DNA of 64,000 nucleotides from Gammaproteobacteria bacterium (GTDB taxonomy: Bacteria > Pseudomonadota > Gammaproteobacteria > S012-40): contig JAOUJM010000001.1 of the NCBI GenBank assembly GCA_029883265.1, positions 10,511 through 74,510 on the forward strand. Direction: 5' to 3'. Both the position numbers and the translations under genes were made by a program. The notes below the pieces were generated by a model that saw only the letters and a program-made list of their open reading frames with translations, was not told the origin of the DNA and searched no databases. The number at the start of each line of letters is the position of its first letter. Position 1 is the first letter of the stretch. Of this stretch, positions 36,801-48,189 are shown piece after piece.

Positions 36801-39800
36801 CATCATTATATTCATAATCAACACGCACGCCTTCACTATCAATCATTGACGTACGATTGCCCTGATCGTCATAAGCAAAACGCGTTATATTGCCATTTTG
36901 ATCGGTAATGGACGTTATGTTATCGCTGCTGCGACCATCCTCATCATAACCATAAACCATCCGATTTTGATTTTGGTCATAGAACTCATGTAATCGATTC
37001 TGCTCATCAAGAAAATAATTCGTCTGTGTATTGCGAGTCAGATCCTCAACCATCGTCCGGGTGGATGTTGTTTCATTTTTCACATAATAGAAATTGAGTG
37101 GCATGATTAAATCCATGCCTTCGACGAGTGAGGTGACGCCCTGCGAGGCAAAATATTCCTGCAAACTCACAGCGAGTTGTTCGTCGCCATAAATCGCAAA
37201 CGCAATGTTTTCCCAAGTGTCACTCGCACTAACCGTGTGAAAGGGTGGGAGCGTAAACTCTTGATAAGTGGGTGAAAAGAAATTGAAGGTATGACTACTC
37301 AGATTATTTTCAATCAGGCCACCACCCACACTGCTCCAGTCATTCCATAGATAAAAGGCCTGTCCTTGCTCGTCCAGTGATAAATCGACCAGAACTTTAT
37401 TACCAGTTCCCACACCATCTTGAGCAACTTCGTCACTCCAGCCACGACCGGGAACATAGTATCTGCTTTTAACAACTGCGGCGCCCGACGCACCATCTTC
37501 CCAAAGTGCGACGATACGCCCTTGTTTGTCCTGCTCAATTCGGTAATCAAAATAATTCGAATTACCTCTGGATGTAGCGCCGAGTAATTTAGTGTCACTC
37601 AAACCGTTAACAGAATCAAAAACTCGCGTATAAAGATTGCCGCCATTCTTCCACGTCACCAACCATTGATCACCATCCAACTTGAAGATTTCTGGATTGA
37701 TATTCGTGTTATATAAAGTGCTTGAAATCGTATCGACAACAAAACCCGTTGACCAAGCAGCGCCGCCTTCTGAATACCATAGATTGATTTTTGGACTGGA
37801 GGCCTGTACAAAAACCATAAGTCGATTACCCAAGCCATCACTTTCTAACTTAATATTGTTGCCACCATCTAGTACACCAAAACCCGGAATACTTAACTTT
37901 TGTGATGCAGCCCATCCTGTAGCTACCGAATAGCGCATGGTGCGAACTGCTCGGGAAATTTCCCAAACCACTTCCAAACCACCATCGGGGAGAACAGTGG
38001 CATTAAAATCGGCGTTGTAGGTGCCACCCAGATAGGTTTCACCAATCCAACCCGATCCCAAAACATAACGATCGGCTTTAATGGGTTGTGGATTGGTGGA
38101 GGTATTACCTTCAGTCCATACTAGATAAACATCACCATTATGGCCTTGATGTAATTGAAATGGTTTCCATTCGGGAAAGCTCACCGGTGCTTTAACAGTG
38201 GGTGCGCTCCAACTATTCGTTGATGCATCATAAAACATCACCATTAAATTGCCGGAGGTATTGGCAAGATTCATTTCATAATATGCAACGGTAATATTGC
38301 CCGCGTCATCAATTAATACCTGGGGCGCTTCCATACGCGTGGACATTGCTTGCCCATCCACCAATGTTATTGCAGCTTGCCAATTTACATTAGTACCGCT
38401 TTGTTGATAGCGACTGATATATAGACTTTTAGATTGTGCAATACTTTGATCGGCCAAGACATCATTATCAATCCAAACTGCCACACCCTGCCCGCTGGTG
38501 TTAGACGCTACATCGATACTTTCTTCCGCTTGCGCCGATGTGCTATACACGGTGTTGGTTGCGACGGCGTGTTCCGCATTGCTTAGCCAACCAGGATAGA
38601 AATCACCGGCATAAACAATCTTTGTAGTCTGTAATTGTTCTGGAAGGGCGATAGCAGAGGCAACTTTATTTAAGTCGAGATTAATGCTTTTGTTTACAAA
38701 TTCACCACTAACTATTTCCGACCAACTCAGTAATCCGAAACCTAGCTCATTCACACTTAGATAAGGACCATAAATACTACTGTCACTTGCGGCCACCTGA
38801 CTCGGACTTGTCCAATTTGCACCATCAAGTGAATAACGCACGAAAAGCGTGCTCGGACCATTTTGTTCACGCCACACCAGTGCCATTCGACCTTGATCAT
38901 CTTGATGAACCTCATAATCAAAATAAAGATAATGACTGGTGAAGCTTTGCTGGGTCGCCACGGATGTTGTTGTCGACCAGCCCGTTGCTGAATCAAATCG
39001 CTTGGAAAACACTTCCTGGTTATCCTTCCAAAACAACACCCAATTGCCTTCCCCTTGATTGAGCAGTTTTAGATCCTTATTGCGATAGGTGCTTGAAGTT
39101 AATACGCTATCGATATTTTCAGTGGTTGTGGTATCACTCATCGCATCATAATACGATGTACCTAAAACACCGGCGTTGTACCACACCATGAGGCGGTTTC
39201 CTACAGTGTCGCTATCGTGGGCGATATTTGCATAGGTATTTGTAATGAACTGATTCTGGGTTGGTTGAACACCGACGCCTGCAATGTAGTCAGTAACTTT
39301 AACAAGATTGCCTCGCGACCAGGCAACGCTCGCATTACCCGACTCGGTGACATCTAATACCGGATACAAATTGAAAGTGGTACCATAGAGACGATCATTG
39401 ATAAATTGCGCGCCCGTCCAACCGGATCCCGCGACAAATCTATCCAAAACAATATCATTGTATTCCGGCGAGGGACTGTCTTGGTTGTACATCAGATAAA
39501 AAGCCCCGGTTCCACCGGTTTTCAGCTCAAAAAGCCGTTTTGAGTCGTAATTTGCAGCCATGTTCTGAATGGTATGTTGCTGCTCGGATTGCCACGTTTG
39601 TGTTGCCGCATCGTAAAAACGTGTCATCAAATAGTAATTACTAGACGTCAGCTCAGCACCATCATTCTCCTGCCACGCAATCATGGCATTACCTGCATCA
39701 TCAATGGCGACCTTAAGATCATAGAAAGTGACGGTGGGTGTGGTTTGTCCTATGGCAGGTTCGGCGCCAACAGTAATGCTTTTTGGTTCACCCCAGGAGC

Positions 39801-41001
39801 CACCAAACTCATTCATGGTGTAGTGTGAAACAAAAATGCTTTTGGAATAACCACGGCTGAAATCGCTCGTGGTGTTATCCTCGATCCATGCGGCAACACC
39901 AGAACCATTTGCACTCATAGCGACATGAGGATTGATCGCTGCGTATTGAGTGGTTTGGGGTAGTGTTTGCAAGGTTCCCGTAGACACAACTCGTTCACCC
40001 GGATAGGTGTAACGTGTCTCATTCCCCAACACATCGCTTACCGTTTGTAACTGACCGGCTGCATTATAGGTAAAAGAAATACTAACCCCATCACCACTGG
40101 TAATGTTACTGATTAAATGGCTCACATCATCCCGATAGGTATAAGTCGTTACATAACGTTGGCCATTAATCGTAGAATTGGTTGTACCGCTAATAGCACT
40201 GATGAGCGAATCGGGTGATAAATCAACAATCACCTGAGTTAAACGATTCAATGCATCATAAGTGTAATGGGTGCGTGCACGGGATTCGACAGCTTGAGTT
40301 TTAGTATCTCGAACCGTACTGGCGATTTTTGTTAAATTTCCTTTAGGGTCATAAACAAGATTAACTGTTTCGACAATACCTTCTGCTTGTAGTAGTTCAA
40401 TTTTTGAAACAAATTGACTGGGCGTGGATCCCCCACCGTAATTATATTTAATTTCATTCTGATCAGAATCAACAACACGACTAACACCCCAAATCGCGCT
40501 ACCATCTGTTGCGGTACCAATTTGCGTATATTCTTCGGTAAAGCTTGAGTTGCCATCCCAAAATGTCCAGTTAGTACCATCAAAAGTTAATATATCATGA
40601 GCGCCATCACCGTCAGTGCTAATGTAATGGTTGTTGGCTTGATCATAAGTAAAGAGTGCTTCAAATCCATCCTTATACGATTTGATCACACTGGAACCAT
40701 CTTGGTTGACCGTTCCCGACAAGCTATGAACACGACGATTTACTCCTAGTCGCCAGTTATCACCATTGTCATCATTTTTCTGACCCAGACTGTTATAAGT
40801 ACGAACCAGATTGAAATCGAGTCCCAAACCAGAGATAAATTCATCCTGGGCTTGCACCACCAAATTACCCGTTTGGGTATTCACATAAACATTGTCGCCA
40901 TTGCGGCCCAATCGAGCTTTGCCTTGGCCGGCATCATTGCCGATGAGATTAAGTGAGGTGTTGTATAAACCCAGTCCTTCACCATTGGTTATCGCAACCA
41001 T
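21847..41001 (-). CDS. Giant YD-repeat (Rhs/teneurin-like) polymorphic toxin of 6384 aa. From the N-terminus it has a unique region, an Asp-box/BNR-like beta-propeller region, a very long YD-repeat region, four LysM-like domains, a hydrophobic Gly/Ala-rich segment and an IRR-encoded linker (VSVQNSAP). The 3'-terminal ~990 nt (21847-22839) lie inside transposon 2 and encode a GxSxG alpha/beta-hydrolase (lipase) tip.
   Basis: Single uninterrupted ORF. Dozens of YxYDxxGR[LV] repeats. LysM-like segments include YIVRSGDTLESIAR, YIVQTGDTLASIAY and YLVVQGDTLETIAG. Lipase elbow is TFTGHSLGGG. AGGGAG Shine-Dalgarno sits 8 nt before the ATG. Confidence 0.9.
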   Translation of the reverse strand: MVAITNGEGLGLYNTSLNLIGNDAGQGKARLGRNGDNVYVNTQTGNLVVQAQDEFISGLGLDFNLVRTYNSLGQKNDDNGDNWRLGVNRRVHSLSGTVNQDGSSVIKSYKDGFEALFTYDQANNHYISTDGDGAHDILTFDGTNWTFWDGNSSFTEEYTQIGTATDGSAIWGVSRVVDSDQNEIKYNYGGGSTPSQFVSKIELLQAEGIVETVNLVYDPKGNLTKIASTVRDTKTQAVESRARTHYTYDALNRLTQVIVDLSPDSLISAISGTTNSTINGQRYVTTYTYRDDVSHLISNITSGDGVSISFTYNAAGQLQTVSDVLGNETRYTYPGERVVSTGTLQTLPQTTQYAAINPHVAMSANGSGVAAWIEDNTTSDFSRGYSKSIFVSHYTMNEFGGSWGEPKSITVGAEPAIGQTTPTVTFYDLKVAIDDAGNAMIAWQENDGAELTSSNYYLMTRFYDAATQTWQSEQQHTIQNMAANYDSKRLFELKTGGTGAFYLMYNQDSPSPEYNDIVLDRFVAGSGWTGAQFINDRLYGTTFNLYPVLDVTESGNASVAWSRGNLVKVTDYIAGVGVQPTQNQFITNTYANIAHDSDTVGNRLMVWYNAGVLGTSYYDAMSDTTTTENIDSVLTSSTYRNKDLKLLNQGEGNWVLFWKDNQEVFSKRFDSATGWSTTTSVATQQSFTSHYLYFDYEVHQDDQGRMALVWREQNGPSTLFVRYSLDGANWTSPSQVAASDSSIYGPYLSVNELGFGLLSWSEIVSGEFVNKSINLDLNKVASAIALPEQLQTTKIVYAGDFYPGWLSNAEHAVATNTVYSTSAQAEESIDVASNTSGQGVAVWIDNDVLADQSIAQSKSLYISRYQQSGTNVNWQAAITLVDGQAMSTRMEAPQVLIDDAGNITVAYYEMNLANTSGNLMVMFYDASTNSWSAPTVKAPVSFPEWKPFQLHQGHNGDVYLVWTEGNTSTNPQPIKADRYVLGSGWIGETYLGGTYNADFNATVLPDGGLEVVWEISRAVRTMRYSVATGWAASQKLSIPGFGVLDGGNNIKLESDGLGNRLMVFVQASSPKINLWYSEGGAAWSTGFVVDTISSTLYNTNINPEIFKLDGDQWLVTWKNGGNLYTRVFDSVNGLSDTKLLGATSRGNSNYFDYRIEQDKQGRIVALWEDGASGAAVVKSRYYVPGRGWSDEVAQDGVGTGNKVLVDLSLDEQGQAFYLWNDWSSVGGGLIENNLSSHTFNFFSPTYQEFTLPPFHTVSASDTWENIAFAIYGDEQLAVSLQEYFASQGVTSLVEGMDLIMPLNFYYVKNETTSTRTMVEDLTRNTQTNYFLDEQNRLHEFYDQNQNRMVYGYDEDGRSSDNITSITDQNGNITRFAYDDQGNRTSMIDSEGVRVDYEYNDVNQIISETRYRVNDPDGADINNTGTGGVGASDAQSSFYIYDAEQHLVFTVSSEGVVNEYVYDTQGRQISQILYKGHIDTSALDPATPISATLLNQAPYNSVVNVGNILQRSDTTYDFRGNISTVTTFDSINPTTGAGVTTTASTTHFVYDAQGILIETIEAQAAATGETRDFITTFTYDGLGRLLASNKPLNHTTTYFYDDVGNQIVRTDANELQTTTVYDSHGYAISQSQQDGQLNPLGTIEYKYDSSGNLRLTIDQTGNYSQNYYDATNRLVATVDKEGGLTETVYDDAGRVIKTIEYSTPVLQSIVNYPYVAGSNFYELSAIKPNSSPSDRINYFIYDDADRLVMQLTPYDNDVTRVAVTQHFYDGSNQLTHSIAYANPFVITGMPNNPRAEYFLDSTTGTYVNEDANNDRRTRFFYNNDGQLVATLDAEGYLTETEYNAAGQVVKTSAYANRSTANLASASLQQLKDAIVRNLAKDQYSYNFYNAKGQLIANHDAEGYLSTFSYDLNGNETESIRYNNKALIISAKGIPADGTYPIMEVRVDGVLVDSIVVDSENFKDYQINALFDQRDTYTIDLTFVNNDLTSRDLQIQSITTGEHQQVVATPDTYSVSVAHGLIQKRLAHVNDKTIVKTYTELNQMETVTNSVDGLVTSYAYDDVGNLIRQTDSYLNALLEFADLDVSLAPENGYTVQSGDTWESIVRSVYHTANANAFVAFAELMGAASPTVGEMLNLPGRFSYTHNQRSSLLRYDIQGRLIGEQLNAQGIAKLDTLINPSESELDLLWEIYGVTHTYNEQGLRTSTKDQNDHRTWFYYDDNGRLRFTAQDVSGTLDESGKVLSNVAEVNELSYNQFGEVKETVAYSTRITNSNTLTGGLVTPSFLDRLSGNTMVDSRTQSSYNLRGAIWRAINGEGQRTEYAYNAFGQISSSVQQQDPTLIPVSQALTGQTSRSDTYVYDRRGLSTSTLKDVSVAGHTGLEIETKRTYDAFGRVIQSTDGNSNITQFGYDRLGRQVQTRNALDVSRSQTYDAFGRVLTMTDAFLNVTTYAYDDATHTLTVTTPELIQTQTITDRNGQTIKIIDGNQSAANSNDGTEYHYDTNGKLVKVVDMLNNTITSEYDKAGRLTHTVDKNGVYSKFEYDAANRVMTRTVDPMTIHTTGDNETGLNIQTQYVFDGLGRKVTTIDANGVHTDTEYDRAGNVLAVVVDAVNGGLNLRTEYTYDAEGRQLTVTEGANSTQARETQYIYDHLGRRTDTIVDPGGLNITTKYYYDAADNMVRKVEGYRRVDVSGLSGSLTLNYAFDDQTLTSSYYVMWSNVTSLATDRILLKENGTTVYDSPADSDFGRYRRGRSGFTYELVLLRNGLELSVATVLPFTPALGAFSETSEVAFATDLSAEDTSHSMRYVYDDVNRLRYSIKNADVLDFEYMELDPIPTGQLAVVVESVYNDRGDKVKTIQYALPISTTTLDDHSTEADILSLVSASADLAKDIVDYSVFDDDGRLTVTVNAVGNYTVYEYDDNGNVIRQSRLANSVSTTDLATINSTNTELLAQTILQKRPDVIANDQGDHFAYDKLNRLRYSVDAMGYVNEKRYDASGQVILSMRYASKETTFADYKEATIRGNLAGNSSTDQINHYFYDNAGRKIYSIDALGYVNQTSYDALGQAIVASRFYQALTINSYQDSTPTAAEWNTYLETRINTLNRQVVDVTETTPLVTATSGKDRVSFQQYDAAGRVSFSVDAEGYVTGREYTGDLLSRVTQYANQLQVVNDTTAEGFPESGVATLATQRFDVRNEGDIQLLVSGTNLLYRNSDTTSGDRSTRYVYDDAGRLYQEILENVSYTTHSTDENGDLVTEYGYDAFGNTTSIVKRLNISGDELQRTTQEFSQRGLLTRRTVYLEAASVVANLDTAHPQTQMAYSSEFGYDAFGNQTKIIDPRGIELTETDSDWADNERKLILGLTATTNLSYIQLTQDQKDTLLNYYSTYQTFDQLNRKTASVIKEGAGSTVNIFELKKTDYDAFGNITKITEPYDTISYFYYDKLDRNTLVVDPERYVTTKAYDGMGNLTGTMQYATAIAAAHTVDDNTTESQILETFLEINTDKDQKTLLNYDQLNRKTELTNAESVKEKYDYDAFGNQIGKLLGHQPITNVLDPDYQRSLGYQYHYNYDRKGNLTSEYLPIANKGGISDRESIEVGMDGRFLLPFIDFETTGFERQTNEFSYDAFGNRRISREAAGMEEERSRSYTYNKLNLLVKTENHRIKLSAGDSVGITTTIEQKYNVVGNLVREIDANLNITQHYYDNLGRRIATHDAEGFLKTFAYDSVSNIIEERKYRDTATFADSIYKFTVSNVYMQLTHRYDAFNQIVETKLPAEHRYEKDRMVPIGDPGDDQFIKEENYVSETVIRKYYDHKGRLVREVDGNENSIFHYYDKKGNKRVTVDALRYATQWNYDAFNNAIREEKASIRLRDVVDENTSLLEVLEKFETNGYEDRIVQVNLEEGYFYPYFWQVGDGMPSVMYVKINLPTLKQGDYYVIRAARADGTYHTTFPTTTILTKGTIPLRSYNTGEIKEFVITLISNSDSFEIARVDTNLMLGSQGWHSGYSAFDVNRLKISDVDYVGGVWSASLLREGETTATPVDVMVNENGEAFFDVGNISGRATVSYILQDNDRVIKSGSINLSNVNVATNGGYNFVIESVDLRDNQYSDSRIKNYSFDKLNRLKTDSLENFQTYSFSNGNMQSGVLEDSVTAYVYDVMGNITTIVDAESNTTNYSFDVLGRLLTKKSGLKSTKNIYDAHGNVIEARNIASEKDSESRNIPLNGAPSLANLDQIQKFSYGVDGRLLEDWDANFNANVSEEYGANNKYTYDAVGNVRTQSLNRHDADGNLFTDIAEYIYDRLNRNIVSGKRTEKNSSVYAYFENKYTEYNGYEKAAFQGAYERNTLQLSRPEANKARQVFFEYDSNGNLIKTNSDGVVKEYAYDRNGNATKEILPSITDNNAPSVYRSSVYNERNELVHIYEPSHTQSISQTLYQTLSDRKVDIEVTPYGGLHLRVHDAVGKDWAETWWDAVDPNVDSIKNSYGEGSLVLEFNPNNEEEKIITYGSGGKDAHYRTPKGHDIGSRTYSATIKKNGYTIASVSGSFRDVDGQNNYVAVDQYYGRDIILKNVPKSLGTLTVEIRRVGETEWVTVEHFDTPSGFNPSWQTWNFGDAGLEGQFELKYEYHYDNEATNPDLTPHTGKVILNLSNNPSVEPGSHLRLDGNAFSSDDGDNSIEARVTSFPFMDSSLSWYYIRDVYLENVDPAQGTLSATIRQSGGETYKEIIFRTITDSTRQRYSVPRSYSGDYVINYTYKPNDPNAKVLQGQLSIDLTGEASLYSHRRVNSSDNSDPDQFVQIHKSHYYNAFGEIVQEKDGKDIYTYFEYDKMGNLIRKSNPRKDPIRNSYYSRLQTIQDANAIYYYDKLGNVTGITDARNNLKRFSYDQNGLKQEFNPDGGGMTYVYDGFGNVIEKRQKLTADSDRVTKYQFDHNNQITYVTKEKHNVIKYVLGSFGGITEETSNIYDNVEKYEYDENGNRIAHINLVDTSLDLTDPDTNSHDEILHDQGGGRERTYFDALGRVVKHVSYGDKVTRYDYNYLTFNGQEGGFSKTTYSGNLYIVRSGDTLESIARQLLRVSEVANRIGSDNGVVDETLVVGNTLTVYLYGRREKLNYIVQTGDTLASIAYSLLNVEDMSNSIGQANNITDADLKAGLQIIIPHYETRAITDQYDYFNKLVYHRDLGNRSYRYFYDARGQLRYQIGNTDPGASIIATDAAWNNIDTQLHGFTYDYMDLYRYSLNNFMTNHSDYDQVIEFDYNDNGSLKAKVDYGFNGGNDGVRLVSRYGYDNNGNKTYEAVYEEGANADIGKDYQYTIAIYDDYNRVVEINDPFFNITYDYDEMGNRIHVVSKYHGGIDLNAHRGADYREATGDFVQEHWYDYDSMNRFRITQGRLDVGGSGNVEIAENKGYEVLYNLAGERIGVNYIRANTTMIERYGYTKNGILETVEHGKIVDNVEDKNLVSRRLLDALGRTSSSHLYDPDIETVVTTIPPQSVQQYDYSYDLDSRISRIEYRKRVENSEDQFLYLQEQSTIHNDYTYREIDRLDLAEKNVSYQVKSIEEQKNFRNSYFYSYWDSAKKSVGRSDVNSRGFVDGYSHLYYDQNGHLMRMDDSNSPLHGTKYERRVEFTVDADGRIIMRNEIDNTNYDVNRYFYLNGRGIGEVSNRGAGETDYTQILAQSRLSNKEIADNEKRGKNRVISADFDQNYQAISANYPANTASEYLVVQGDTLETIAGKVWGDASLWYVIANANNITNIDLTPGISIIIPNVVTNIHNNADTFKPYSPGEIIGSTDPSMPARNQPSKSEIFWMNVASVVISIAAFIVFGPQGAIIAAGMTSYAIQKYMKNVGYIDEIDEEEIVKSMTIAAIISQIPGLNQTGGGVVKGALQGAGRALISTGLSMAMESTEQRKKYNSQAGNLFANVAVGALVGGVTSSLPSNVGKVDGWGFAGVAGDAIRGALTGVGRIAVNSMTLKDYRPDWRTVAVEALSSAASGYISAEQSTKKFDNKLDELKINDHRQRQAIKKHYTKSIRKGVSGEDAWKSALGELPLFGGIQPGRNLIRNGGKTYNGYGQVSVQNSAPGKIPYRQSSDAVETKPILTFKNGQLVDENGTLYNSQLASAAPIRLDFSGSLDWYENAMVSDDVYQEYTGKEPKKVTEDIYRMGRDFIDVLDMKPENFVDKKSGYQGALYFNYRTSEFIFANRGTDTKLGRHEAVKDAVASIAQGSDFNSTQYEFGINLAIDLQIALGSSPLTFTGHSLGGGIASAQAGRLKSSAVTFNAAGLSDGTIERYGMDRNHLKKNVYAFYTPGEILSTLQASPVVDSVLNQWGTVPKNLLAAVMALNDVSYGRDIGWHRFGPGQMPEAAGTRIAVPAVNEAKQPLPWQSYLDPVDLHDMQYFINAFK

Positions 41002-41185
41002 GAGAGTCTCCCTAGAATCAGTACTTATAATTTATCGTCTACAAGTTATATCCAGGGTTTAATGAAGATGTTCAGTCGGATTGCACAAAAAAATGTTTGT
41101 TTGACTATTCTTTATACGATTTTAATTTTTTAGTCTATTTTTGCCTAGCCATATGAGATGTCATGTCAATTTAAAGCGCTGAAGA
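41002..41185 (-). promoter_or_regulatory. Putative promoter/5' region of the giant gene. It lies inside direct-repeat copy 1 and is identical to the 3' flank of the TPR gene at 46979-47100.
   Basis: AT-rich 184-bp intergenic region. Assignment is by position only. Confidence 0.3.
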
Positions 41186-41518
41186 TCAAGCTTTTTCAAA
41201 AAAACTCATAACGCTCTGAATGATTTTTTCCGGTGTATCAAGATTGTCTCCTGCTGCGAGAATAGTTTTACATAGGAGTACGAGCGGAGAATTTGGCTGC
41301 ATGGCTTCCGCTTTTAGCAATACTTCGCTGGCTTGATTGTCATTGCCTTCAAACAATGCCACCAAAGCCAAACTTGCGAGTGTTTCCGCACTTTGTCCAT
41401 CAAGTATTAATGCTTGCTGCAAGTTGCTTTTTGCTACTGGGATTTGATTACTGGCTATTTGCGCCCAGGCCAATGCAACCAGGTTCGCAGTGTCGTTTGG
41501 CATGAGGTTTGTGGGTTG
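41052..41518. repeat. Direct repeat copy 1 (about 467 bp, ~99% identical to 46979-47438)
   Basis: Aligned by eye. Only about 3 mismatches were seen. Confidence 0.8.
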
Positions 41519-41545
41519 AGCTGAGCTAAAAAACAAGTCGATCAT
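41186..41545 (-). pseudogene. Duplicated 3' fragment of the TPR gene (C-terminal ~107 codons, inside repeat copy 1)
   Basis: The protein is identical, apart from 2 substitutions, to the C-terminus of the 362-aa TPR protein. Upstream sequence diverges at 41518. Confidence 0.7.
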
Positions 41546-41877
41546 CCACCATAGATTATGAGCATAAAGCCCTTGACGAACGTATACTGTACTTGATTTG
41601 TTTTCGAGTAATGCATTGTTTTCAGTTGCAAGCTTGATTAGAAAATCACCTTCATCACCGAGTGTGCCTACTCATACATTTTCGTCTGAGAAAATATTTG
41701 GTAGGTGTAGTAATTGGAATAAGCATTCAACGATGTCTCAATATCGTAGAAGGACAATAAACTCCCATTTTCCACACTCAAGCGCACAACGAATTCTCTG
41801 TCACTACCCGCGCTCATAGTCAGTGAAACTGATAGCCCATAAATTATCTGAGTGCGACTTTAACATTGAAATACTCC

Positions 41878-42183
41878 TTAATGTGAATGACTCACCAAGA
41901 TCAACACTTTCATTTGATCATTGTTCACGGAAATTTCCAAACGATCAAAATTTAATTGTAATGGTGGGGAGTTTTGCACGGTTACATAGCTGTATCCGAC
42001 GTAGGTGGCAATTTCTTCTAACCTGTAGTGCCCACTTAGATAAGCTTGGGGCATGGCTTCACTGCGAGTGCTCGTATTTTTTTCATAGTACGCGATTGGT
42101 TTGGGGGGCGTTTGTCTTTGAGGCTTGGGGATATCTTTCAACGAAAAGATCGGGTTGAATGTTCGATTGCATTTCTTCAACAA
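41878..42183 (-). CDS. Hypothetical 101-aa protein, possible HTH segment
   Basis: ORF only. Flanked by non-coding-looking remnants at 41545-41880. Confidence 0.25.
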   Translation of the reverse strand: MLKKCNRTFNPIFSLKDIPKPQRQTPPKPIAYYEKNTSTRSEAMPQAYLSGHYRLEEIATYVGYSYVTVQNSPPLQLNFDRLEISVNNDQMKVLILVSHSH

Positions 42184-42369
42184 ATTCGCGAAGTGCTTTT
42201 TTAGCTAGTTTTCTGGACGAATGAGCCTTTGACGACGCGCTAACAAACTTATTGATAGTGTATATTTGGATTGCAAGTGCCGGGGCTTCAACTATGACTC
42301 ATTTCCGGACAACTTAAATCAGAAATGGTGTTGCAGCAGGATTTCCCACATTTTCCCTTGCCAACGGTA

Positions 42370-43845
42370 TTAGAAGCTTATCAATACTCCCATCTTCATC
42401 GATGATAGGCTGATTTGTCGTAATTTATGAAAGTGAGTATTTTTCAATTCAAGTTGGGGCAGATGATGCTGGTATCGTATAAAAATATTCATCGCAGATT
42501 GACTAAGGACTGGATACTGAATTCCCATAAGCGCAAACCAAGCGTTATGTATTTTCTCTTGCACTTGCATAGTCCCTTTTTGGGCCAGATAACTTTTTGC
42601 CTGAGAGTCGATTGTATTCCTGTTTAGAGAGTACCCCGAACCAATATTAAAGCCAATTTTGCGAAATGGTCTTATATCAAACATCACATAAAATGGGATG
42701 CTAGTAAATGTGCCACGACTCAACTCGCCTACTTGATTACTGCCCTGCTCATATGCCATACCTATAGTTAATTTTTGATAACCAAATTCCAGTTGCGGGT
42801 CGAAATGATTCTTTCGGTTTTTAGCATATAACGAATAGGCTATGCCAAACTTTGCATTTAGTGTTGAAATATTTCTTCGTTTCGTTATAAAACGGGAAGT
42901 ATGCATGGAAGTATGTGCAGAAATACCCAATAACACAATAGAGTTGCGTGCAGAAAATGTTTGGTCCAGTTTGGCGAGAAATGACAAATTAGGACTGCTT
43001 GTATCATATAAATACTGTGTTTGTTTTCCTTGGCTATCAATTTGCTCATATTGATACTGAACAAAGCCAAACAATCTTTGAGATAGAGGATAAGTGAGTG
43101 TAAAAGTATAGGCAATCATGCTGCCTTTAAGGCTTCCACGTGAAAGTTTTTTCCTTATTAAGTGATCGTCCTCATCCTTCAAGCGAAGTCGTGGTGCCTT
43201 AATCAAATTAAATTCGAAAATGAGTTGACGAAAAATACTTTCTACTGAAACACTCCAGTAAGGAATTTGCAAAAAAGTATTGTAGTGCAACACGGGACCA
43301 GAATGTGTATTAGCTGCGCGTGTGGAATCAGCATAAAATTGGTTTAGGTTACTGGCTACAAAATAGCGTTGACTGCTTCGATAACCTAGCGAAAATTTAT
43401 AAATCGTCTTAACTCCGCTGCTCCAGTGCTGAGTTTGTAAAGTTGAGACTCCTTTAACATTATTGGTTTTTTGGTTTAATACTAAATCACTTATTGAATA
43501 AACATCCGGTGTAGATATATTCCCCGATAACCAATCGCCATCTTTAAGTTGTCCACTTTTCTGTGTCGTACTTCGATTTGAGTTTAATTCGATCGATAAT
43601 CGATTACTTAATGCAGCTGCAATGGAAATTGAAGGGGATATGTTATTAATTGGAAAGTGCAATTCACTTACCGGGAAATGTAATTGAGCGTTTCTTTGCG
43701 CTAATTCCGTTTCCCCCCCAATACGATATTGATTATAGCCTTGGTAGAGACCTATTCCCGGCTGCAAAAAAAGTAGTTTAGCGCCAAAAACGCTTACCGC
43801 GTTCAACGTCAATCCCATGAAGATGATAATATTGCATGTGCGCAT
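42370..43845 (-). CDS. Putative outer-membrane beta-barrel protein (491 aa, signal peptide, C-terminal Phe)
   Basis: N-terminal hydrophobic signal, alternating amphipathic pattern, Y/F/S/N-rich, ends ..GVLISF. Confidence 0.5.
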   Translation of the reverse strand: MRTCNIIIFMGLTLNAVSVFGAKLLFLQPGIGLYQGYNQYRIGGETELAQRNAQLHFPVSELHFPINNISPSISIAAALSNRLSIELNSNRSTTQKSGQLKDGDWLSGNISTPDVYSISDLVLNQKTNNVKGVSTLQTQHWSSGVKTIYKFSLGYRSSQRYFVASNLNQFYADSTRAANTHSGPVLHYNTFLQIPYWSVSVESIFRQLIFEFNLIKAPRLRLKDEDDHLIRKKLSRGSLKGSMIAYTFTLTYPLSQRLFGFVQYQYEQIDSQGKQTQYLYDTSSPNLSFLAKLDQTFSARNSIVLLGISAHTSMHTSRFITKRRNISTLNAKFGIAYSLYAKNRKNHFDPQLEFGYQKLTIGMAYEQGSNQVGELSRGTFTSIPFYVMFDIRPFRKIGFNIGSGYSLNRNTIDSQAKSYLAQKGTMQVQEKIHNAWFALMGIQYPVLSQSAMNIFIRYQHHLPQLELKNTHFHKLRQISLSSMKMGVLISF

Positions 43846-43876
43846 TTTACAATAGCCGCAACCACACGATAAAATA

Positions 43877-44809
43877 CTAAATATCAGTTGTTTCTTGATA
43901 ATTAAGAAGATACGGAGTAATTGTTTGCTCGGTTCGGTTCAATAAATAAAAACCGTGTTGATCGACAAGCGCGCCTCTTAATAAAATTAAATCACCATCG
44001 GTAGAAACAGAATATGATTGTATAACTCCACTGTATTCAAAATTAGCTGGGACAAAATCCAATGAATCGACAGTTGTCGTTTTTGGCTGAACATCCAGAA
44101 TATGAAGATCATTATCGGTGATGCCATATAGTTGATCTAGCAAAGAGTTGTATTGCCGAGGTTTGAAGGAAATGCCTTGTTCCGTATAAAAAGACAACTG
44201 TAGATCCAAAATTACTAAGGAATCAGTTGTTGGATGATAGAGAAAAGCTTCTGCATCCGTTTTCCATACGAAGAATCCGTATTGATCACTACTTTCTACG
44301 ACTGTACCAAAATCGTTGACGATCTTAAAGCTGTTGGCCGTGGAAACTGCGATTAAGCTACCATCGGGTGAAGTGTCTAAATTAATAGGTGGTTCTTCCA
44401 GGAGCATTCGAGTTATCTCTACTCCTGAGGCATCGTAAGCAATCAGTCCGTATTCTTGAGTTAGGCGATTTTCCGTGACAAAGAAGGTTGTATTATTTGT
44501 TAAACGAGCTGCGTATAGTTCTGCAATCGAATCTGCTTTGTGATCGTTCAGTTGCATAATTTTCACAGGAGTTTGAATCGATGTTGCTGCTGTAAACACG
44601 GTTTTAGTGTTACTCACCTGGTTATGGGAAGACTGAGGCCCCCAGGTTTTTTGAAGATCCTCGAGAAACAGAACACTGTTATCTGTATCAAAACTCGCGG
44701 CAAAGTAAGAAATGTGTCTTGTTTCCGTTTCTGTCTCGTTTGGCAACAGATCACATCCTAATAAAGTCACGGCAATGTAAGCCGTGACAAATCTAAACAA
44801 TATTTTCAT
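43877..44809 (-). CDS. Lipoprotein (310 aa; lipobox TLLGC), beta-propeller-like
   Basis: MKILFRFVTAYIAVTLLGCD.. Same operon as the beta-barrel gene. Confidence 0.5.
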   Translation of the reverse strand: MKILFRFVTAYIAVTLLGCDLLPNETETETRHISYFAASFDTDNSVLFLEDLQKTWGPQSSHNQVSNTKTVFTAATSIQTPVKIMQLNDHKADSIAELYAARLTNNTTFFVTENRLTQEYGLIAYDASGVEITRMLLEEPPINLDTSPDGSLIAVSTANSFKIVNDFGTVVESSDQYGFFVWKTDAEAFLYHPTTDSLVILDLQLSFYTEQGISFKPRQYNSLLDQLYGITDNDLHILDVQPKTTTVDSLDFVPANFEYSGVIQSYSVSTDGDLILLRGALVDQHGFYLLNRTEQTITPYLLNYQETTDI

Positions 44810-44814
44810 AAACC

Positions 44815-46089
44815 TTAGAATCCAGAACTCGAAAGATCGCAGTTATTGCTGCTTGATCCATCGTTGCTTGAACTATTCGAGCTACTACAGTGCTCATTCC
44901 CATTTTCTGCAATGAATAGTAATTTACTTTTGGTTTCCGCTTCAACTTCTGCGGTAAATCGAGTGCCAGTCCATTTTTCTGGTAACCCCGTATTTACATA
45001 AATCGCTTCGAGTGCTTTAGTATGAAGGTTAGCAATAATTGATACAATAGGCGATTTATAGGTATAACCTACCCATATTTTAAGAGTACCCAACCATGTT
45101 TTAATGTAAATATAATTGCTACTCCAATGAGCGTAGGCTGCATAAACGTCTCGGCCCACTTTATTGTTATGCAAATCCATTTGGCCTGCCTTTGAGTCCC
45201 AGTTTTCACCCTTTTGTTCATGCGCGTTGGTAAATACCTCGGCCCACCATAAACCGCGACTTTCACTGGATGGCAAAATTAAAGTTGAAGAAGCAAAATG
45301 TGCAAGGTATGCATTCCATGCCGAATGCTGAAAGGAATTTGCTGAGGTACTATCAGCCGTGGTATTGAAAAGACTTTTAGTTGAGCTTTTAGCGTTGTTG
45401 GATGCATTGAAGGTGTCTAACCAATGTTCGGGGTGATTTACCAACAAATAGATTTCACCGGCACTCAATTTACTACCAAATAAATTCTCCAAGTCGTCGT
45501 AAATTGATTGAGAAACCGCCGCTGTATCTATAATTGCATTTTGCAGTTCAGCAATGGAAGCGGCAATTTGCATTTGTACCTGCGGCGTCGCAAGTTCGGA
45601 TATGACTATATAGTTTTTCTCTGCACCGATTTTTTTAAGTTCATTACGAATTTCTGCGACCACATAATCTTCAATATCTTGCTCCGTCATGACTTGATCC
45701 GGGGTCCCTGTTTGAGGATTAACTAAGTTTTGTACTTTCTCATTTGCAAAAGCCTCAACATTGAATGCAGGATAGCTTGTTCCTAGCGCTTGGATGATAG
45801 GTTCGACTGCGTCGAAAGTAGCTAGAAATTCAAGCCCTACACCATCCAAGGATTGAACCACGTGAGGTGTCAACATATCCACGAAATCATCATCGCTCAT
45901 TTCCAAAAGATTAGGAGGAAAGCTGGTTTTATATTTTTCGTAAAGCGGTTGCTCACTAGTGCCATACTGATGACTTACAAGTGAATCTCTATCGGAGTGA
46001 CTACACGCATGCAAAAATGTAGTCAATGATAAAACTATCAAGCAGGAAAATAACTTCCGATTATAAAAATTGTTTTCTAAAATTACCAT
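44815..46089 (-). CDS. Lipoprotein (424 aa; lipobox FLHAC), Ser/Asn-rich C-terminus
   Basis: Signal peptide plus LHAC. It is the first gene of the three-gene operon. Confidence 0.5.
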   Translation of the reverse strand: MVILENNFYNRKLFSCLIVLSLTTFLHACSHSDRDSLVSHQYGTSEQPLYEKYKTSFPPNLLEMSDDDFVDMLTPHVVQSLDGVGLEFLATFDAVEPIIQALGTSYPAFNVEAFANEKVQNLVNPQTGTPDQVMTEQDIEDYVVAEIRNELKKIGAEKNYIVISELATPQVQMQIAASIAELQNAIIDTAAVSQSIYDDLENLFGSKLSAGEIYLLVNHPEHWLDTFNASNNAKSSTKSLFNTTADSTSANSFQHSAWNAYLAHFASSTLILPSSESRGLWWAEVFTNAHEQKGENWDSKAGQMDLHNNKVGRDVYAAYAHWSSNYIYIKTWLGTLKIWVGYTYKSPIVSIIANLHTKALEAIYVNTGLPEKWTGTRFTAEVEAETKSKLLFIAENGNEHCSSSNSSSNDGSSSNNCDLSSSGF

Positions 46090-46619
46090 AATATTTTTCT
46101 CAACTGTCTATTACCAAAAACAAGATCTTGCAGCAGGCTTCCTCAAGCTACACCTTGCGATGTTAACCATGCCTTTCTACTAACCTTCAGCTTTGCGAAC
46201 ATCTTGTAAAAGTAGGAAATGGGTGTCTTACAATTTACCCATTTAGAAATCATATGAGTCAATTTGACTGACGTAAAAGGTTGCGTCCCATTTTTCCAAC
46301 GGCCTACAGTAGAATTCGGCTAATAATAATTGGGAATCGGTACTCGAAAGAAATAAGTGTCGTTTTTTAATCGAGCAGCGATTAATTGAACCAATCGAAC
46401 TAATTTACCATTATTATTTTTGCGCATATTACATTACGCATGCAACTTGTCAATTACTTTTGGTTGCTTTAGTTTATTGAGGGATTGCAAACGGGTTAAT
46501 TGTCGGGCTTAGGATTGTGGCTGATAGAGTTTCACACTAGCTGATTTTGTTCGTGGTGCGAATTCGAGTCTTAACGCATTCTCAACTAATAATCTCCATC
46601 AAAGTTGGCCTAAACATTT

Positions 46620-46945
46620 TCAGGCTGAATCAAATTCAAAGGACACTACTGCGCAATCTTTATTTCCACGACCTTGGCGCTCCAACTCGTTATATACAAA
46701 CTGTTGAAGCTGCGATGAAACGCCGTTTTCCTCACACGCCGGCACATTGTTAACTTTCTTGAAAAAGATATAGGCTTCAAAAGAATTCATCCTTGGCCAT
46801 AATATGAGAATCATGAGCCTTAACGGGACAAATATTCTTAAAATACCCGCGAAATGCATCGTTGACATGATCCATATTTCGATCACGCTCTTTCATGCGT
46901 CTCTTTGCTCTGGCAAATGCTTCGTCACTTGGTATTTTACTCATC
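46620..46945 (-). pseudogene. Small gene (~110 codons) apparently frameshifted in a TTTT run
   Basis: Frame 1 reads MSKIPSDEAFARAKRRMKERDRNMDHVNDAFRGYFKNICPVKAHDSHIMAKDEFF then stops. The next frame continues EAYIFFKKVNNVPACEENGVSSQLQQFVYNELERQGRGNKDCAVVSFEFDSA. Confidence 0.3.
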
Positions 46946-46978
46946 TATTTTCGCCTTCCTGACCTAGTGATCTTGCTC

Positions 46979-47438
46979 AAAGATGTTTAGTCGGATTGCA
47001 CAAAAAAATGTTCGTTTGACTATTCTTTATACGATTTTAATTTTTTAGTCTATTTTTGCCTAGCCATATGAGATGTCATGTCAATTTAAAGCGCTGAAGA
47101 TCAAGCTTTTTCAAAAAAACTTATAACGCTCTGAATGATTTTTTCCGGTGTATCAAGATTGTCTCCTGCTGCGAGAATAGTTTTACATAGGAGTACGAGC
47201 GGAGAATTTGGCTGCATGGCTTCCGCTTTTAGCAATACTTCGCTGGCCTGATTGTCATTGCCTTCAAACAATGCCACCAAAGCCAAACTTGCGAGTGTTT
47301 CCGCACTTTGTCCATCAAGTATTAATGCTTGCTGCAAGTTGCTTTTTGCTACTGAGATTTGATTACTGGCTATTTGCGCCCAGGCCAATGCAACCAGGTT
47401 CGCAGTGTCGTTTGGCATGAGGTTTGTGGCCTGTTGCA
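46979..47438. repeat. Direct repeat copy 2 (3' end of the TPR gene plus its downstream flank)
   Basis: Matches 41052-41518. Confidence 0.8.
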
Positions 47439-48189
47439 AATAGTCACAAGCGGAGGAAAAATCCTGTTGCTGTAATGCAATCATGCCCAGCCCAGACAAG
47501 GACCGTGCATTTTTTGCATCACGCTTCAACGCATGATGGTAATATTGTTTGGCATGATTCAAATCAGATCGATCAAAACTTATCGTCCCCAACACTACAT
47601 GGGCTTCAAGCGAATCAGCATCTAATTCCAAAGCTGTTGTGGCATACTCTAAGGCCCTGTCTTGTTGTTGCGCATCCAAAGAAATAATCGCTAGTTGTCC
47701 GAGTGCTGTCACATCCTGAGGATGCCGCACAAGATATTTTTCGAGATTAGACTGCGCTTCATCAAGTTTATTGAGGTGATGCTGTGCTCGCGCAAGTACA
47801 ACCGCTACATTGGGTACTTGTTGAGACTGTAGATCAATTGCACGAAGCACCTCTTCGGCTTGCTCATACTCTCCTGTATATAAGTAGGCATAACCAAGAT
47901 TGTAACGCAGCACATCATTATCCACGCCTTGTCGCTGCATATCCAACAAAGTAGCAATCGCTTGCTTATAATCACCACTGGCGATGCTGAATGTTGCTAA
48001 ACGAAAAAGCAAACCCGGGTCAGCTCCTAAGCGTTGGATGGCAGATTTAATCTGTTGTTCTGCGTTATCAAACTGCGCAAGCTGCGTTTGTAAATCAATC
48101 ACACGATACAAAAGATGCAAATTGTTTTCGTCTTGTGACAAATAACCTAAAAACTTGTTGAGCTCTGTTTGCAGTTGATCCGTATCCAT
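47101..48189 (-). CDS. TPR-repeat protein (362 aa)
   Basis: Multiple 34-aa TPR-like repeats. Confidence 0.6.
   Translation of the reverse strand: MDTDQLQTELNKFLGYLSQDENNLHLLYRVIDLQTQLAQFDNAEQQIKSAIQRLGADPGLLFRLATFSIASGDYKQAIATLLDMQRQGVDNDVLRYNLGYAYLYTGEYEQAEEVLRAIDLQSQQVPNVAVVLARAQHHLNKLDEAQSNLEKYLVRHPQDVTALGQLAIISLDAQQQDRALEYATTALELDADSLEAHVVLGTISFDRSDLNHAKQYYHHALKRDAKNARSLSGLGMIALQQQDFSSACDYLQQATNLMPNDTANLVALAWAQIASNQISVAKSNLQQALILDGQSAETLASLALVALFEGNDNQASEVLLKAEAMQPNSPLVLLCKTILAAGDNLDTPEKIIQSVISFFEKA

What the first reader, a model, noticed from the sequence alone, without database searches (positions are those of the whole stretch)
41052..47438. A ~460-bp direct repeat (3' end of a TPR gene plus its flank) brackets a 5.5-kb island and supplies the giant gene's upstream region
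41052-41518 and 46979-47438 differ at only about 3 positions. Copy 2 is the intact 3' end of the TPR gene. Copy 1 is a truncated gene fragment whose downstream flank now serves as the 184-bp region upstream of the giant gene's ATG. Direct repeats of this size flanking a gene block are consistent with integration by single crossover through this 460-bp segment, or with a segmental duplication.
Basis: seen in the sequence. Interest (0 to 1): 0.55.

Follow-up and report, generated by a model that had tools for sequence, protein, structure and literature searches.

The report
Gene-tail duplication flanking an inserted toxin cassette
A 450-base copy of the tail of a TPR gene sits on both sides of a 5.5-kb cassette wedged between that gene and a giant Rhs toxin gene; it is a real but fairly ordinary recombination scar with no mobility machinery of its own.

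Summary
The repeat is real, with slightly different coordinates. R1 is 41065-41514 and R2 is 46980-47429. Each is 450 bp, they are 5915 bp apart, and they differ at 5 positions (98.9% identity), with sharp edges on both sides. R consists of the last 329 nt of a 362-aa TPR gene plus 121 nt of its downstream flank. R2 completes the intact gene. R1 is a 5'-truncated relic, and its flank supplies 121 of the 184 nt upstream of a 6384-aa Rhs/YD-repeat toxin gene.

Independent metagenome assemblies reproduce all four junctions, so this is not an assembly artefact.

The 5465-bp interval has no integrase, tRNA, terminal inverted repeats or compositional deviation. It holds:
- a conserved three-gene module: a Min-Wnt-like DUF6973 lipoprotein, a second lipoprotein and an omptin-like outer-membrane protein;
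- a 5'-truncated relic of a Y1 transposase.

The most likely origin is that the cassette was stacked in front of the Rhs gene by one homologous exchange in the TPR tail plus one illegitimate joint (Campbell-type or one-ended recombination). Polarity and mechanism remain inferred: no close relative genome exists in the collections, and no empty site was found. A regulatory role for the shared 121-nt flank is unsupported.

Interest is low to moderate.

The parts
46980..47429 (-). R2. The repeat copy that forms the last 329 nt of the intact TPR gene plus 121 nt of downstream flank.
   Evidence: Alignment. Exact comparison. Traversed in full by the independent contigs L001, L002 and L022.
41065..41514 (-). 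R1. The repeat copy that is a 5'-truncated TPR gene tail plus the same 121-nt flank, ending 63 nt upstream of the giant gene's ATG.
   Evidence: Traversed in full by the independent contig L009 at 100% identity.
47101..48189 (-). Intact 362-aa TPR gene. It is the last gene of a flagellar-type cluster (FliF ... FliP, sigma-28-like factor, TPR185, TPR362).
   Evidence: ORF list. Pfam TPR families. Neighbouring genes.
41186..41545 (-). 119-aa ORF. It consists of 10 codons from the cassette end fused to the last 109 codons of the TPR gene. It is a probable pseudogene relic: GGTGG abuts the ATG, so there is no properly spaced ribosome-binding site.
41515..46979 (-). The 5465-bp interval enclosed by the repeats (the 'island').
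   Evidence: GC is 39.2% against 40.7-44% in the flanks. Tetranucleotide correlation with the adjacent flagellar DNA is 0.887, which is at the lower edge of the 0.887-0.925 range seen among the flagellar segments themselves.
46777..46944 (-). 55-aa ORF with a GGAAGG ribosome-binding site. It is the first gene after R2 and lies 35 nt beyond the repeat edge. No homologue or family was found.
   Evidence: Sequence. Called as a gene on 5 contigs. No family hits.
44815..46089 (-). 424-aa probable lipoprotein, Min-Wnt-like. It hits Pfam DUF6973 at 75 bits and Pfam wnt at 22.8 bits (gathering cut-off 20.3). Its HNNKVGR motif fits the sNxxGR motif of the SAA-Wnt clade.
   Evidence: Alignment with P0012. 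Motif described in PMC12419801.
43877..44809 (-). 310-aa probable lipoprotein (LLGC lipobox). It is the conserved partner of the DUF6973 gene.
   Evidence: 28% identity (E 2e-37) to the gene that follows the DUF6973 homologue on L023.
42370..43845 (-). 491-aa omptin-like outer-membrane protein.
   Evidence: 32% identity over 469 aa (E 3e-86) to the L023 protein that hits Pfam Omptin.
41968..42144 (-). 5'-truncated relic of an IS200-like Y1 transposase gene. Only the C-terminal ~59 codons (HTH region) remain.
   Evidence: phmmer against 1.84 billion representative proteins: 92 hits, with matches at the C-terminal ends of 210-303-aa proteins. Several of these carry Pfam Y1_Tnp. tblastn finds only the C-terminal piece in the window.
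41002..41064 (-). Unique 63 nt between R1 and the giant gene's ATG. It includes a GGGAGA ribosome-binding site.
   Evidence: Sequence.
21847..41001 (-). Giant 6384-aa Rhs/YD-repeat polymorphic toxin gene, with DUF6531 at the N-terminus, many RHS repeats and two LysM domains. It is followed by an ankyrin-repeat gene, IS66 copies and an orphan TNT toxin fragment.
   Evidence: Precomputed TEN_YD-shell and Phospholipase-like domains.
46394..46402 (-). 9-bp unit (TAGTTCGAT/CAGTTCGAT). It is present once here and in L009, but three times in L001 and L022.
   Evidence: 18-bp indel in the alignments.

Best explanation
The repeat is a recombination scar. It was left when a 5.5-kb cassette was placed between the TPR gene and the giant Rhs toxin gene. 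The cassette carries a Min-Wnt-like lipoprotein, a partner lipoprotein, an omptin-like outer-membrane protein and a dead Y1-transposase fragment.

The incoming DNA carried its own copy of the TPR gene tail and 121-nt flank. This implies it came from a sibling lineage in which the cassette directly followed the TPR gene.

Two routes give the same product:
- It circularised and integrated by one RecA-type crossover within those 450 bp (Campbell-type).
- It entered as linear DNA, using the TPR tail as a homologous anchor and joining illegitimately at its other end inside the resident TPR gene.

Both routes give: intact TPR gene (R2) - cassette - truncated TPR tail (R1) - Rhs gene.

What is shown: the anatomy, the sharp edges, the reality of all four junctions, the absence of any recombinase, and the portability of the three-gene module.

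What is inferred: the polarity (cassette incoming, Rhs resident), the sibling-lineage donor and the recombination route.

Expected consequences, also inferred: the two 98.9%-identical repeats are substrates for homologous deletion (loss of the cassette as a 5915-bp circle) or for amplification, and both the 55-aa ORF and the Rhs gene now lie behind the same 121-nt sequence.
For: - Two equal 450-bp direct repeats with abrupt edges, one completing an intact gene and one a 5'-truncated tail. Only R is duplicated.
- All junctions are reproduced in independent assemblies.
- There is no integrase, tRNA, known RNA or terminal inverted repeat, so any site-specific route lacks its machinery.
- The three cassette genes recur together on an unrelated metagenome contig (L023) at 40%, 28% and 32% identity, without TPR or Rhs neighbours. 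They therefore form a separable module.
- In Hahella sp. HN01, the only genome found with the homologous TPR pair inside the orthologous flagellar-type cluster, a giant DUF6531/YD-shell Rhs gene also lies two genes from the TPR pair and there is no such cassette. This weakly favours the TPR-Rhs neighbourhood as the older state.
- R1 and R2 differ by 1.1%, whereas single-copy DNA differs by 0-0.15% between samples. This fits one copy having come from a diverged lineage, or an old event.
- The surrounding locus is recombination-prone: IS66 copies, an orphan toxin fragment and a truncated Y1-transposase gene.
Against: - No empty site, circular form or cassette-free relative was found, so neither insertion nor polarity is demonstrated.
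- Cassette composition is indistinguishable from the host.
- In Hahella the Rhs gene is on the other side of the TPR pair, so the synteny argument rests on adjacency only and on a single genome.
- The donor haplotype (TPR gene followed directly by the cassette, without Rhs) is hypothetical.
Confidence: 0.5

Rival explanations
1. Same event, opposite polarity. The resident arrangement was TPR gene - cassette. The block beginning with R1 (TPR tail, flank, giant Rhs gene and its downstream immunity/orphan array) came from a sibling lineage in which Rhs directly followed the TPR gene. It was joined illegitimately to the end of the cassette.
For: - The final structure is symmetrical with respect to which block arrived.
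- Rhs loci with IS66 copies and orphan modules are typical horizontally exchanged DNA.
- R1, not R2, carries the alleles that differ in two amino acids, and R1/R2 divergence exceeds population diversity.
Against: - It requires moving more than 20 kb rather than 5.9 kb.
- The Hahella comparison suggests that giant Rhs next to the TPR pair is a shared, older feature.
- The cassette module is the one seen elsewhere in a different context.
Confidence: 0.17
2. Local copy-and-paste. The cassette already lay between the TPR gene and the Rhs gene. A 450-bp copy of the TPR tail was later inserted just upstream of the Rhs gene, for example by replication template switching. It may have been retained because it provides Rhs with useful upstream sequence.
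For: - The repeat supplies 121 of the 184 nt upstream of the Rhs ATG.
- Weak sigma-70-like matches (9 of 12) lie in the flank.
Against: - It needs two novel joints instead of one.
- Promoter-like matches are no more frequent than in shuffled sequence (20 found against 17.3 expected).
- No terminator or stable structure is predicted in the flank (z = 0.15 and 0.13).
- Nothing explains why 329 nt of coding sequence would be copied along with the flank.
Confidence: 0.15
3. Site-specific genomic island or transposon. A mobile element integrated into the 3' end of the TPR gene, carrying a replacement gene tail. The repeats would then be its attachment sites.
For: - Integration into a gene's 3' end with restoration of the gene is a classic island signature.
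- A Y1-transposase relic lies near the R1 end.
Against: - There is no integrase or intact transposase.
- There is no tRNA and no terminal inverted repeats.
- 450 bp is far longer than usual att cores.
- Y1 transposases do not make long duplications (established knowledge of IS200/IS605).
- The relic lacks its catalytic domain.
- There are no matches in the phage or plasmid collections.
Confidence: 0.05
4. Assembly artefact. Two strain variants of a single TPR tail were chained by the assembler.
For: - The source is a metagenome-assembled genome.
- Several contigs break inside R at the discriminating SNPs.
Against: - The cassette-end/mid-TPR junction is present in four assemblies from at least three data sets. 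These are ENA ERZ27296366 and ERZ27296342, the JGI 3300022223 contig that is also in NCBI GCA_029880205.1, and Logan SRR7132593.
- Each repeat copy is fully traversed by at least one independent contig.
- SNP spacing (at most 126 nt) is below k = 141, so the two haplotypes are phased by k-mers.

Confidence: 0.03

Closest known systems
Campbell-type (single-crossover) integration of a circular DNA carrying a chromosomal fragment
   Same: Direct repeats equal to the shared segment flank the inserted DNA. One gene copy is intact and the other truncated. The product can revert by recombination between the repeats.
   Different: No plasmid, replication or transfer genes are present. The circular intermediate and the empty site were not observed. 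The event is natural and inferred only.
Orphan-module stacking in Rhs and CDI toxin loci (e.g. Koskiniemi et al. 2014, PMC3967940, found)
   Same: A new cassette is placed upstream of an older one. The displaced module keeps a fragment of the upstream conserved gene. This creates direct repeats that can later recombine. The setting is a polymorphic-toxin locus that already holds an orphan TNT toxin fragment.
   Different: The repeated piece is the tail of a TPR gene, not the rhs core. The displaced unit is a complete 6384-aa Rhs gene, not a C-terminal tip.
Homology-facilitated illegitimate recombination (e.g. PMC3240628, found)
   Same: One homologous anchor plus one illegitimate joint adds foreign DNA without any element-encoded recombinase.
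   Different: As I recall the literature, it usually replaces or deletes resident DNA rather than duplicating 450 bp. Competence or conjugation in this organism is unknown.
Integrase-borne genomic islands inserted in the 3' end of a tRNA or protein gene
   Same: The target gene is kept intact by an element-borne tail. A displaced tail fragment remains at the far end.
   Different: No integrase is present. The repeats are about 450 bp at 98.9% identity instead of short att cores. There is no compositional deviation.
Min-Wnt / Lipocone lipoprotein toxin cassettes (Burroughs et al. 2025, PMC12419801)
   Same: The cassette's first large gene has a lipobox, a linker and a DUF6973/Wnt-like domain with the sNxxGR motif. 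It is followed by a lipoprotein that could be its immunity partner.
   Different: This concerns the content of the cassette, not the repeat. The omptin-like third gene was not found in that paper by term search. Toxin and immunity roles are untested. The structure model failed (pLDDT 35).

Membership tests
Campbell-type single-crossover insertion | Two direct repeats of equal length with sharp edges flanking unrelated DNA | tested here: met
   450 bp each, 445/450 identical, abrupt loss of identity at both ends.
Campbell-type single-crossover insertion | One intact and one truncated copy of the gene that supplied the homology | tested here: met
   R2 completes the 362-aa TPR ORF. R1 holds only the last 109 codons.
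Campbell-type single-crossover insertion | An empty site and/or circular form exists in relatives or in the population | tested here: inconclusive
   No close relative in the GTDB species genomes, the JGI metagenomes or 5.8 billion proteins. Every contig found carries the cassette. Reads are not available.
Tandem segmental duplication | The whole duplicated unit is present twice, head to tail | tested here: not met
   Only R is repeated. The 5465-bp interval occurs once.
Integrase-mediated genomic island / prophage / ICE | Tyrosine or serine recombinase gene at one end | tested here: not met
   No such domain in any ORF of the interval with Pfam, NCBIfam, PHROGs or PADLOC.
Integrase-mediated genomic island / prophage / ICE | Insertion at a tRNA/tmRNA gene or a short att core | tested here: not met
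   No tRNA or tmRNA in the window. No Rfam match. The repeat is 450 bp.
Integrase-mediated genomic island / prophage / ICE | Composition deviating from the host | tested here: not met
   GC 39.2% against 40.7-44%. Tetranucleotide correlation of 0.887 with the adjacent flagellar DNA.
Insertion sequence / composite transposon | Intact transposase, terminal inverted repeats and a short target-site duplication | tested here: not met
   Only a 59-codon C-terminal relic of a Y1 transposase. No terminal inverted repeats. The duplication is 450 bp.
Rhs/CDI orphan module | The repeated segment is part of the conserved rhs/cdiA core preceding a displaced C-terminal toxin tip | tested here: not met
   The repeated segment is a TPR gene tail. 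The downstream gene is a full-length Rhs with its N-terminal DUF6531.
Min-Wnt (Lipocone superfamily), for the cassette's 424-aa protein | Sequence match to the Wnt/Min-Wnt profile and the sNxxGR motif in helix 4 | tested here: met
   Pfam wnt 22.8 bits (cut-off 20.3) and DUF6973 75 bits. HNNKVGR is conserved in the homologue P0012 as HNNAIGR. Motif as described in PMC12419801.
Min-Wnt (Lipocone superfamily), for the cassette's 424-aa protein | Four/five-helix Lipocone fold | tested here: inconclusive
   AlphaFold2 with a two-sequence alignment gave pLDDT 35 and is unusable. No sequence match in the PDB.

The most novel reading that the evidence does not exclude
The TPR gene tail plus its 121-nt flank serves as a recombinase-free docking sequence at the edge of a flagellar-type export cluster. 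Conflict cassettes that carry a copy of it can be stacked, excised as circles or amplified by host homologous recombination. This would shuffle which toxin module (Min-Wnt cassette or giant Rhs) lies directly behind the TPR operon.

A related point: the TPR pair, the flagellar-type cluster and a giant Rhs protein are neighbours in two distant gammaproteobacteria (this MAG and Hahella sp. HN01). This could reflect a functional link, for example TPR chaperones or flagellar-type export serving a giant Rhs protein.
Probability: 0.08. Interest if true: 0.7.

Novelty: new member of a known kind. Interest (0 to 1): 0.3.

Why it matters
The repeat itself is an ordinary kind of rearrangement scar. Its value is local:
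- It marks a boundary where two inter-bacterial conflict modules have been stacked next to a flagellar-type gene cluster in an uncultured gammaproteobacterium. The modules are an uncharacterised Min-Wnt-like lipoprotein cassette and a 6384-aa Rhs toxin.
- It predicts that the cassette is unstable, through loss or amplification between the 450-bp repeats.
- It explains why short-read assemblies of this organism break here.
- If sibling lineages with only one of the modules are found, the locus would be a clean natural example of cassette stacking by one-ended homologous recombination outside the rhs/cdi core context.

Tried and rejected
- **Related genomes for presence/absence.** The GTDB species-genome scan with the TPR protein gave only 25-33% identical TPR proteins in unrelated taxa. 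The JGI metagenome scan gave the same. The 5.8-billion-protein search returned only the protein itself plus a 27% homologue in Hahella.
- **Word-index searches with cassette proteins.** The 491-aa protein found only itself. The 424-aa protein found one 40% homologue.
- **Plasmid and phage collections.** Sensitive blastn with 41002-47500 found no match.
- **Mobility hallmarks.** No tRNA, no Rfam family and no terminal inverted repeats. Pfam, NCBIfam, PHROGs and PADLOC gave nothing on the small ORFs.
- **Regulatory role of the 121-nt flank.** Promoter-like matches were at background frequency and there was no terminator. There is no RNA structure beyond shuffles (one search was a failed request).
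- **Degenerate remains of the TPR 5' part upstream of R1.** None found.
- **Foreign composition of the cassette.** Not seen.
- **Structure of the Min-Wnt-like protein.** The model was unusable (pLDDT 35), so no fold search was run. The PDB sequence search was negative.
- **Rhs-side contigs from other samples, via the ankyrin gene.** The giant gene is fragmented in those assemblies, so they add nothing on R1.
- **Other TPR-matched loci (L003-L021).** None has the TPR pair, Rhs or cassette together.


Full report
**Observation.** A repeat search on 38-50 kb found one direct-repeat family with a 5915-bp offset. Aligning 40950-41650 with 46865-47565 and comparing base by base gives two 450-bp copies: R1 at 41065-41514 and R2 at 46980-47429. 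They are identical at 445 positions. The mismatches are at 41073/46988, 41098/47013, 41207/47122, 41333/47248 and 41440/47355. Identity ends abruptly on both sides. Sensitive protein and nucleotide searches find no decayed remains of the rest of the TPR gene next to R1.

**Anatomy.** All genes here are on the minus strand. In the direction of transcription the order is:
1. a flagellar-type cluster (FliF, FliH, FliI, FlgD, FlgE, FliM, FliN, FliO, FliP);
2. a sigma-28-like factor (48804-49538);
3. a 185-aa TPR protein and a 362-aa TPR protein (47101-48189);
4. the 5465-bp interval 46979-41515;
5. R1;
6. 63 unique nt;
7. a 6384-aa gene (41001-21847).

R consists of the last 329 nt of the 362-aa TPR gene plus 121 nt after its stop codon. 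R2 completes the intact gene. R1 retains the last 109 codons behind 10 unrelated codons and an ATG without a properly spaced ribosome-binding site, so it is most likely a relic. The 184 nt upstream of the giant gene are made of 121 nt of repeat and 63 nt of unique sequence with a GGGAGA ribosome-binding site. The same 121 nt precede a 55-aa ORF at the start of the interval.

**The giant gene and what follows it.** The giant gene is an Rhs/YD-repeat polymorphic toxin. It has DUF6531 at residues 40-95, RHS repeats throughout and two LysM domains. Precomputed domains also include TEN_YD-shell and Phospholipase-like. Downstream lie an ankyrin-repeat gene, an IS66 transposase, an orphan TNT-toxin fragment and a second IS66. 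This is a typical recombination-prone toxin locus.

**Is it an assembly artefact?** The source is an uncultured gammaproteobacterium. The TPR protein occurs only in MAG and metagenome records. Exact-protein look-ups retrieved independent contigs that I aligned to the window:
- L001 (ENA ERZ27296366) runs from 58189 through R2 and the whole interval to 41441.
- L002 (ERZ27296354) spans 48654-46678.
- L022/L026 (NCBI GCA_029880205.1, the same contig as in JGI 3300022223) spans 47870-41438.
- L009 (ERZ27296342) spans 47179-31186 at 100% identity. It therefore crosses the interval end, all of R1 and the start of the giant gene.
- A Logan contig (SRR7132593) ends exactly 30 nt into R1, as expected for k = 31.

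Each repeat copy and all four junctions are therefore supported outside the window's own assembly. The SNP spacing within R (at most 126 nt) is below k = 141, so the two haplotypes are phased. An artefact is very unlikely.

Two details remain unexplained.
- Contigs tend to stop at the discriminating SNPs: 41441 and 41438 when entering R1, and a break between 47151 and 47179 in R2 in ERZ27296342.
- L002 carries the R1 allele at 47248 in an R2 context.

Together these hint at mixed R haplotypes in the samples. The cause could be strain polymorphism, gene conversion, or products of recombination between the repeats. Only read mapping can tell.

**What the interval contains.** There is no integrase, no intact transposase, no tRNA, no Rfam family and no terminal inverted repeats. 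It has no similarity to known plasmids or phages. Its GC content (39.2%) and tetranucleotide usage match the neighbouring flagellar DNA (r = 0.887). It encodes three substantial proteins.
- **The 424-aa protein** has a lipoprotein-like signal. It hits Pfam DUF6973 (75 bits) and, above the gathering threshold, Pfam wnt (22.8 against 20.3 bits). Its conserved HNNKVGR matches the sNxxGR motif that Burroughs et al. give for the SAA-Wnt clade of the Lipocone superfamily. That paper describes bacterial Min-Wnt lipoprotein toxins paired with lipoprotein or membrane immunity proteins (PMC12419801).
- **The 310-aa protein** is another probable lipoprotein.
- **The 491-aa protein** is 32% identical to an omptin-family outer-membrane protein.

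All three have homologues clustered on one unrelated metagenome contig (L023: 40%, 28% and 32% identity) that has no TPR or Rhs genes. They therefore form a separable module.

Between the omptin-like gene and R1 lies a short ORF. Its residues 14-72 match the C-terminal helix-turn-helix end of IS200-like Y1 transposases (92 hits, best E 1e-13). Only that tail is present. Two 5'-truncated gene relics, the Y1-transposase tail and the TPR tail, therefore lie in series in front of the Rhs gene.

**Comparative evidence.** The TPR protein has no relative above 33% identity in 185,579 species genomes, in the JGI metagenomes or among 5.8 billion proteins. Every contig that carries the locus has the cassette.

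The one informative comparison is Hahella sp. HN01. There the homologous TPR pair (41% and 27% identity) sits in the orthologous flagellar-type cluster (FlgI 53%, FlgG 41%). It is also two genes away from a giant DUF6531/YD-shell Rhs gene, with no Min-Wnt cassette. The Rhs gene lies on the other side of the TPR pair, so this supports only the idea that giant Rhs next to the TPR pair is an older neighbourhood. It is a single case.

**Mechanism.** A plain tandem duplication is excluded because the enclosed block occurs once. A site-specific element is unsupported because its machinery is absent.

The most economical account needs one homologous exchange within R and one illegitimate joint (cassette end to mid-TPR gene). 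This could be integration of a 5.9-kb circle carrying R plus the cassette, or one-ended homologous recombination of linear DNA. Either way, the donor would be a sibling lineage in which the cassette directly followed the TPR gene.

R1 and R2 differ by 1.1%. Single-copy DNA differs by 0-0.15% among the sampled populations. Either one copy came from a somewhat diverged lineage or the event is old relative to the sampled diversity.

The mirror-image polarity (the Rhs block arriving) and a local copy of R inserted upstream of Rhs cannot be excluded. I give them lower weight, for reasons of size, the Hahella neighbourhood and the number of joints required.

The situation resembles the stacking of orphan modules in Rhs/CDI loci, where displaced modules retain a piece of the upstream gene (PMC3967940). 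Here, however, the repeated piece is a TPR gene tail, so it is not a member of that class.

**Function of the shared flank.** Sigma-70-like matches in the flank (9 of 12 positions) are no more frequent than in shuffled sequence, and no terminator is predicted. Folding gives z-scores of about 0 for the flank. The statement that the repeat 'supplies the giant gene's upstream region' is therefore true as geometry, for 121 of 184 nt. It is unsupported as regulation. Read-through from the TPR operon is equally possible.

**Verdict.** This is a real 450-bp partial-gene duplication bracketing an inserted or stacked conflict cassette. It is best read as a scar of homologous-plus-illegitimate recombination in a toxin-rich, rearrangement-prone region, and as a likely cause of contig breaks and of cassette instability. 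It is a new instance of a known kind of event. The more interesting items are by-products: the Min-Wnt-like three-gene module, and the recurrence of a giant Rhs gene beside this TPR pair and flagellar-type cluster.

Noticed in passing
window 44815-46089 (-), with 43877-44809 and 42370-43845: The 424-aa probable lipoprotein hits Pfam DUF6973. It also hits the animal Wnt family above the gathering threshold and carries the sNxxGR motif of the SAA-Wnt (Lipocone) clade. Together with a 310-aa lipoprotein and an omptin-like outer-membrane protein it forms a three-gene module that recurs on metagenome contig L023. It may be a Min-Wnt toxin/immunity cassette with a dedicated outer-membrane partner.
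   Followed up: partly
window 41968-42144 (-): A 5'-truncated relic of an IS200-like Y1 transposase gene. Only the C-terminal HTH region (~59 codons) is present. It lies between the omptin-like gene and R1.
   Followed up: yes
L028 (Hahella sp. HN01, JAHMIN010000043.1) 1-11137, compared with window 21847-48763: The homologous TPR pair lies within an orthologous flagellar-type cluster and is again next to a giant DUF6531/YD-shell Rhs gene (4883 aa). The Rhs gene is on the opposite side of the TPR pair, which there is followed by FliQ-FliR-FlhB-FlhA. This may be a conserved association between giant Rhs proteins and this cluster.
   Followed up: partly
window 46394-46402: A 9-bp unit (CAGTTCGAT-like) upstream of the DUF6973 gene is present once in the window and in L009, but three times in L001 and L022/L026. 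This is a copy-number polymorphism between samples.
   Followed up: partly
window 41438-41441 and 47151-47179: Independent short-read contigs end at or next to the SNPs that distinguish R1 from R2, although the SNP spacing is below k = 141. L002 also carries the R1 allele at 47248 in R2. This suggests mixed or hybrid repeat haplotypes in the sampled populations.
   Followed up: partly
window 6847-7944 and 18733-19833: Two diverged IS66-family elements (78-87% identity) lie about 11.9 kb apart in direct orientation. Their transposases are at 7647-9185 and 19554-21044. They bracket the orphan TNT-toxin fragment (17834-18817) and several unannotated small genes downstream of the giant Rhs gene.
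   Followed up: no
window 957-1108 and 1548-1699: A 152-bp direct repeat at 97% identity, 591 bp apart, in a region of small unannotated ORFs. These may be repeated immunity or orphan modules.
   Followed up: no
window 54696-55064 (within the FliI-like gene): 8 of the 14 SNPs between the window and L001 cluster in about 370 bp. This looks like a short recombination tract between strains.
   Followed up: no
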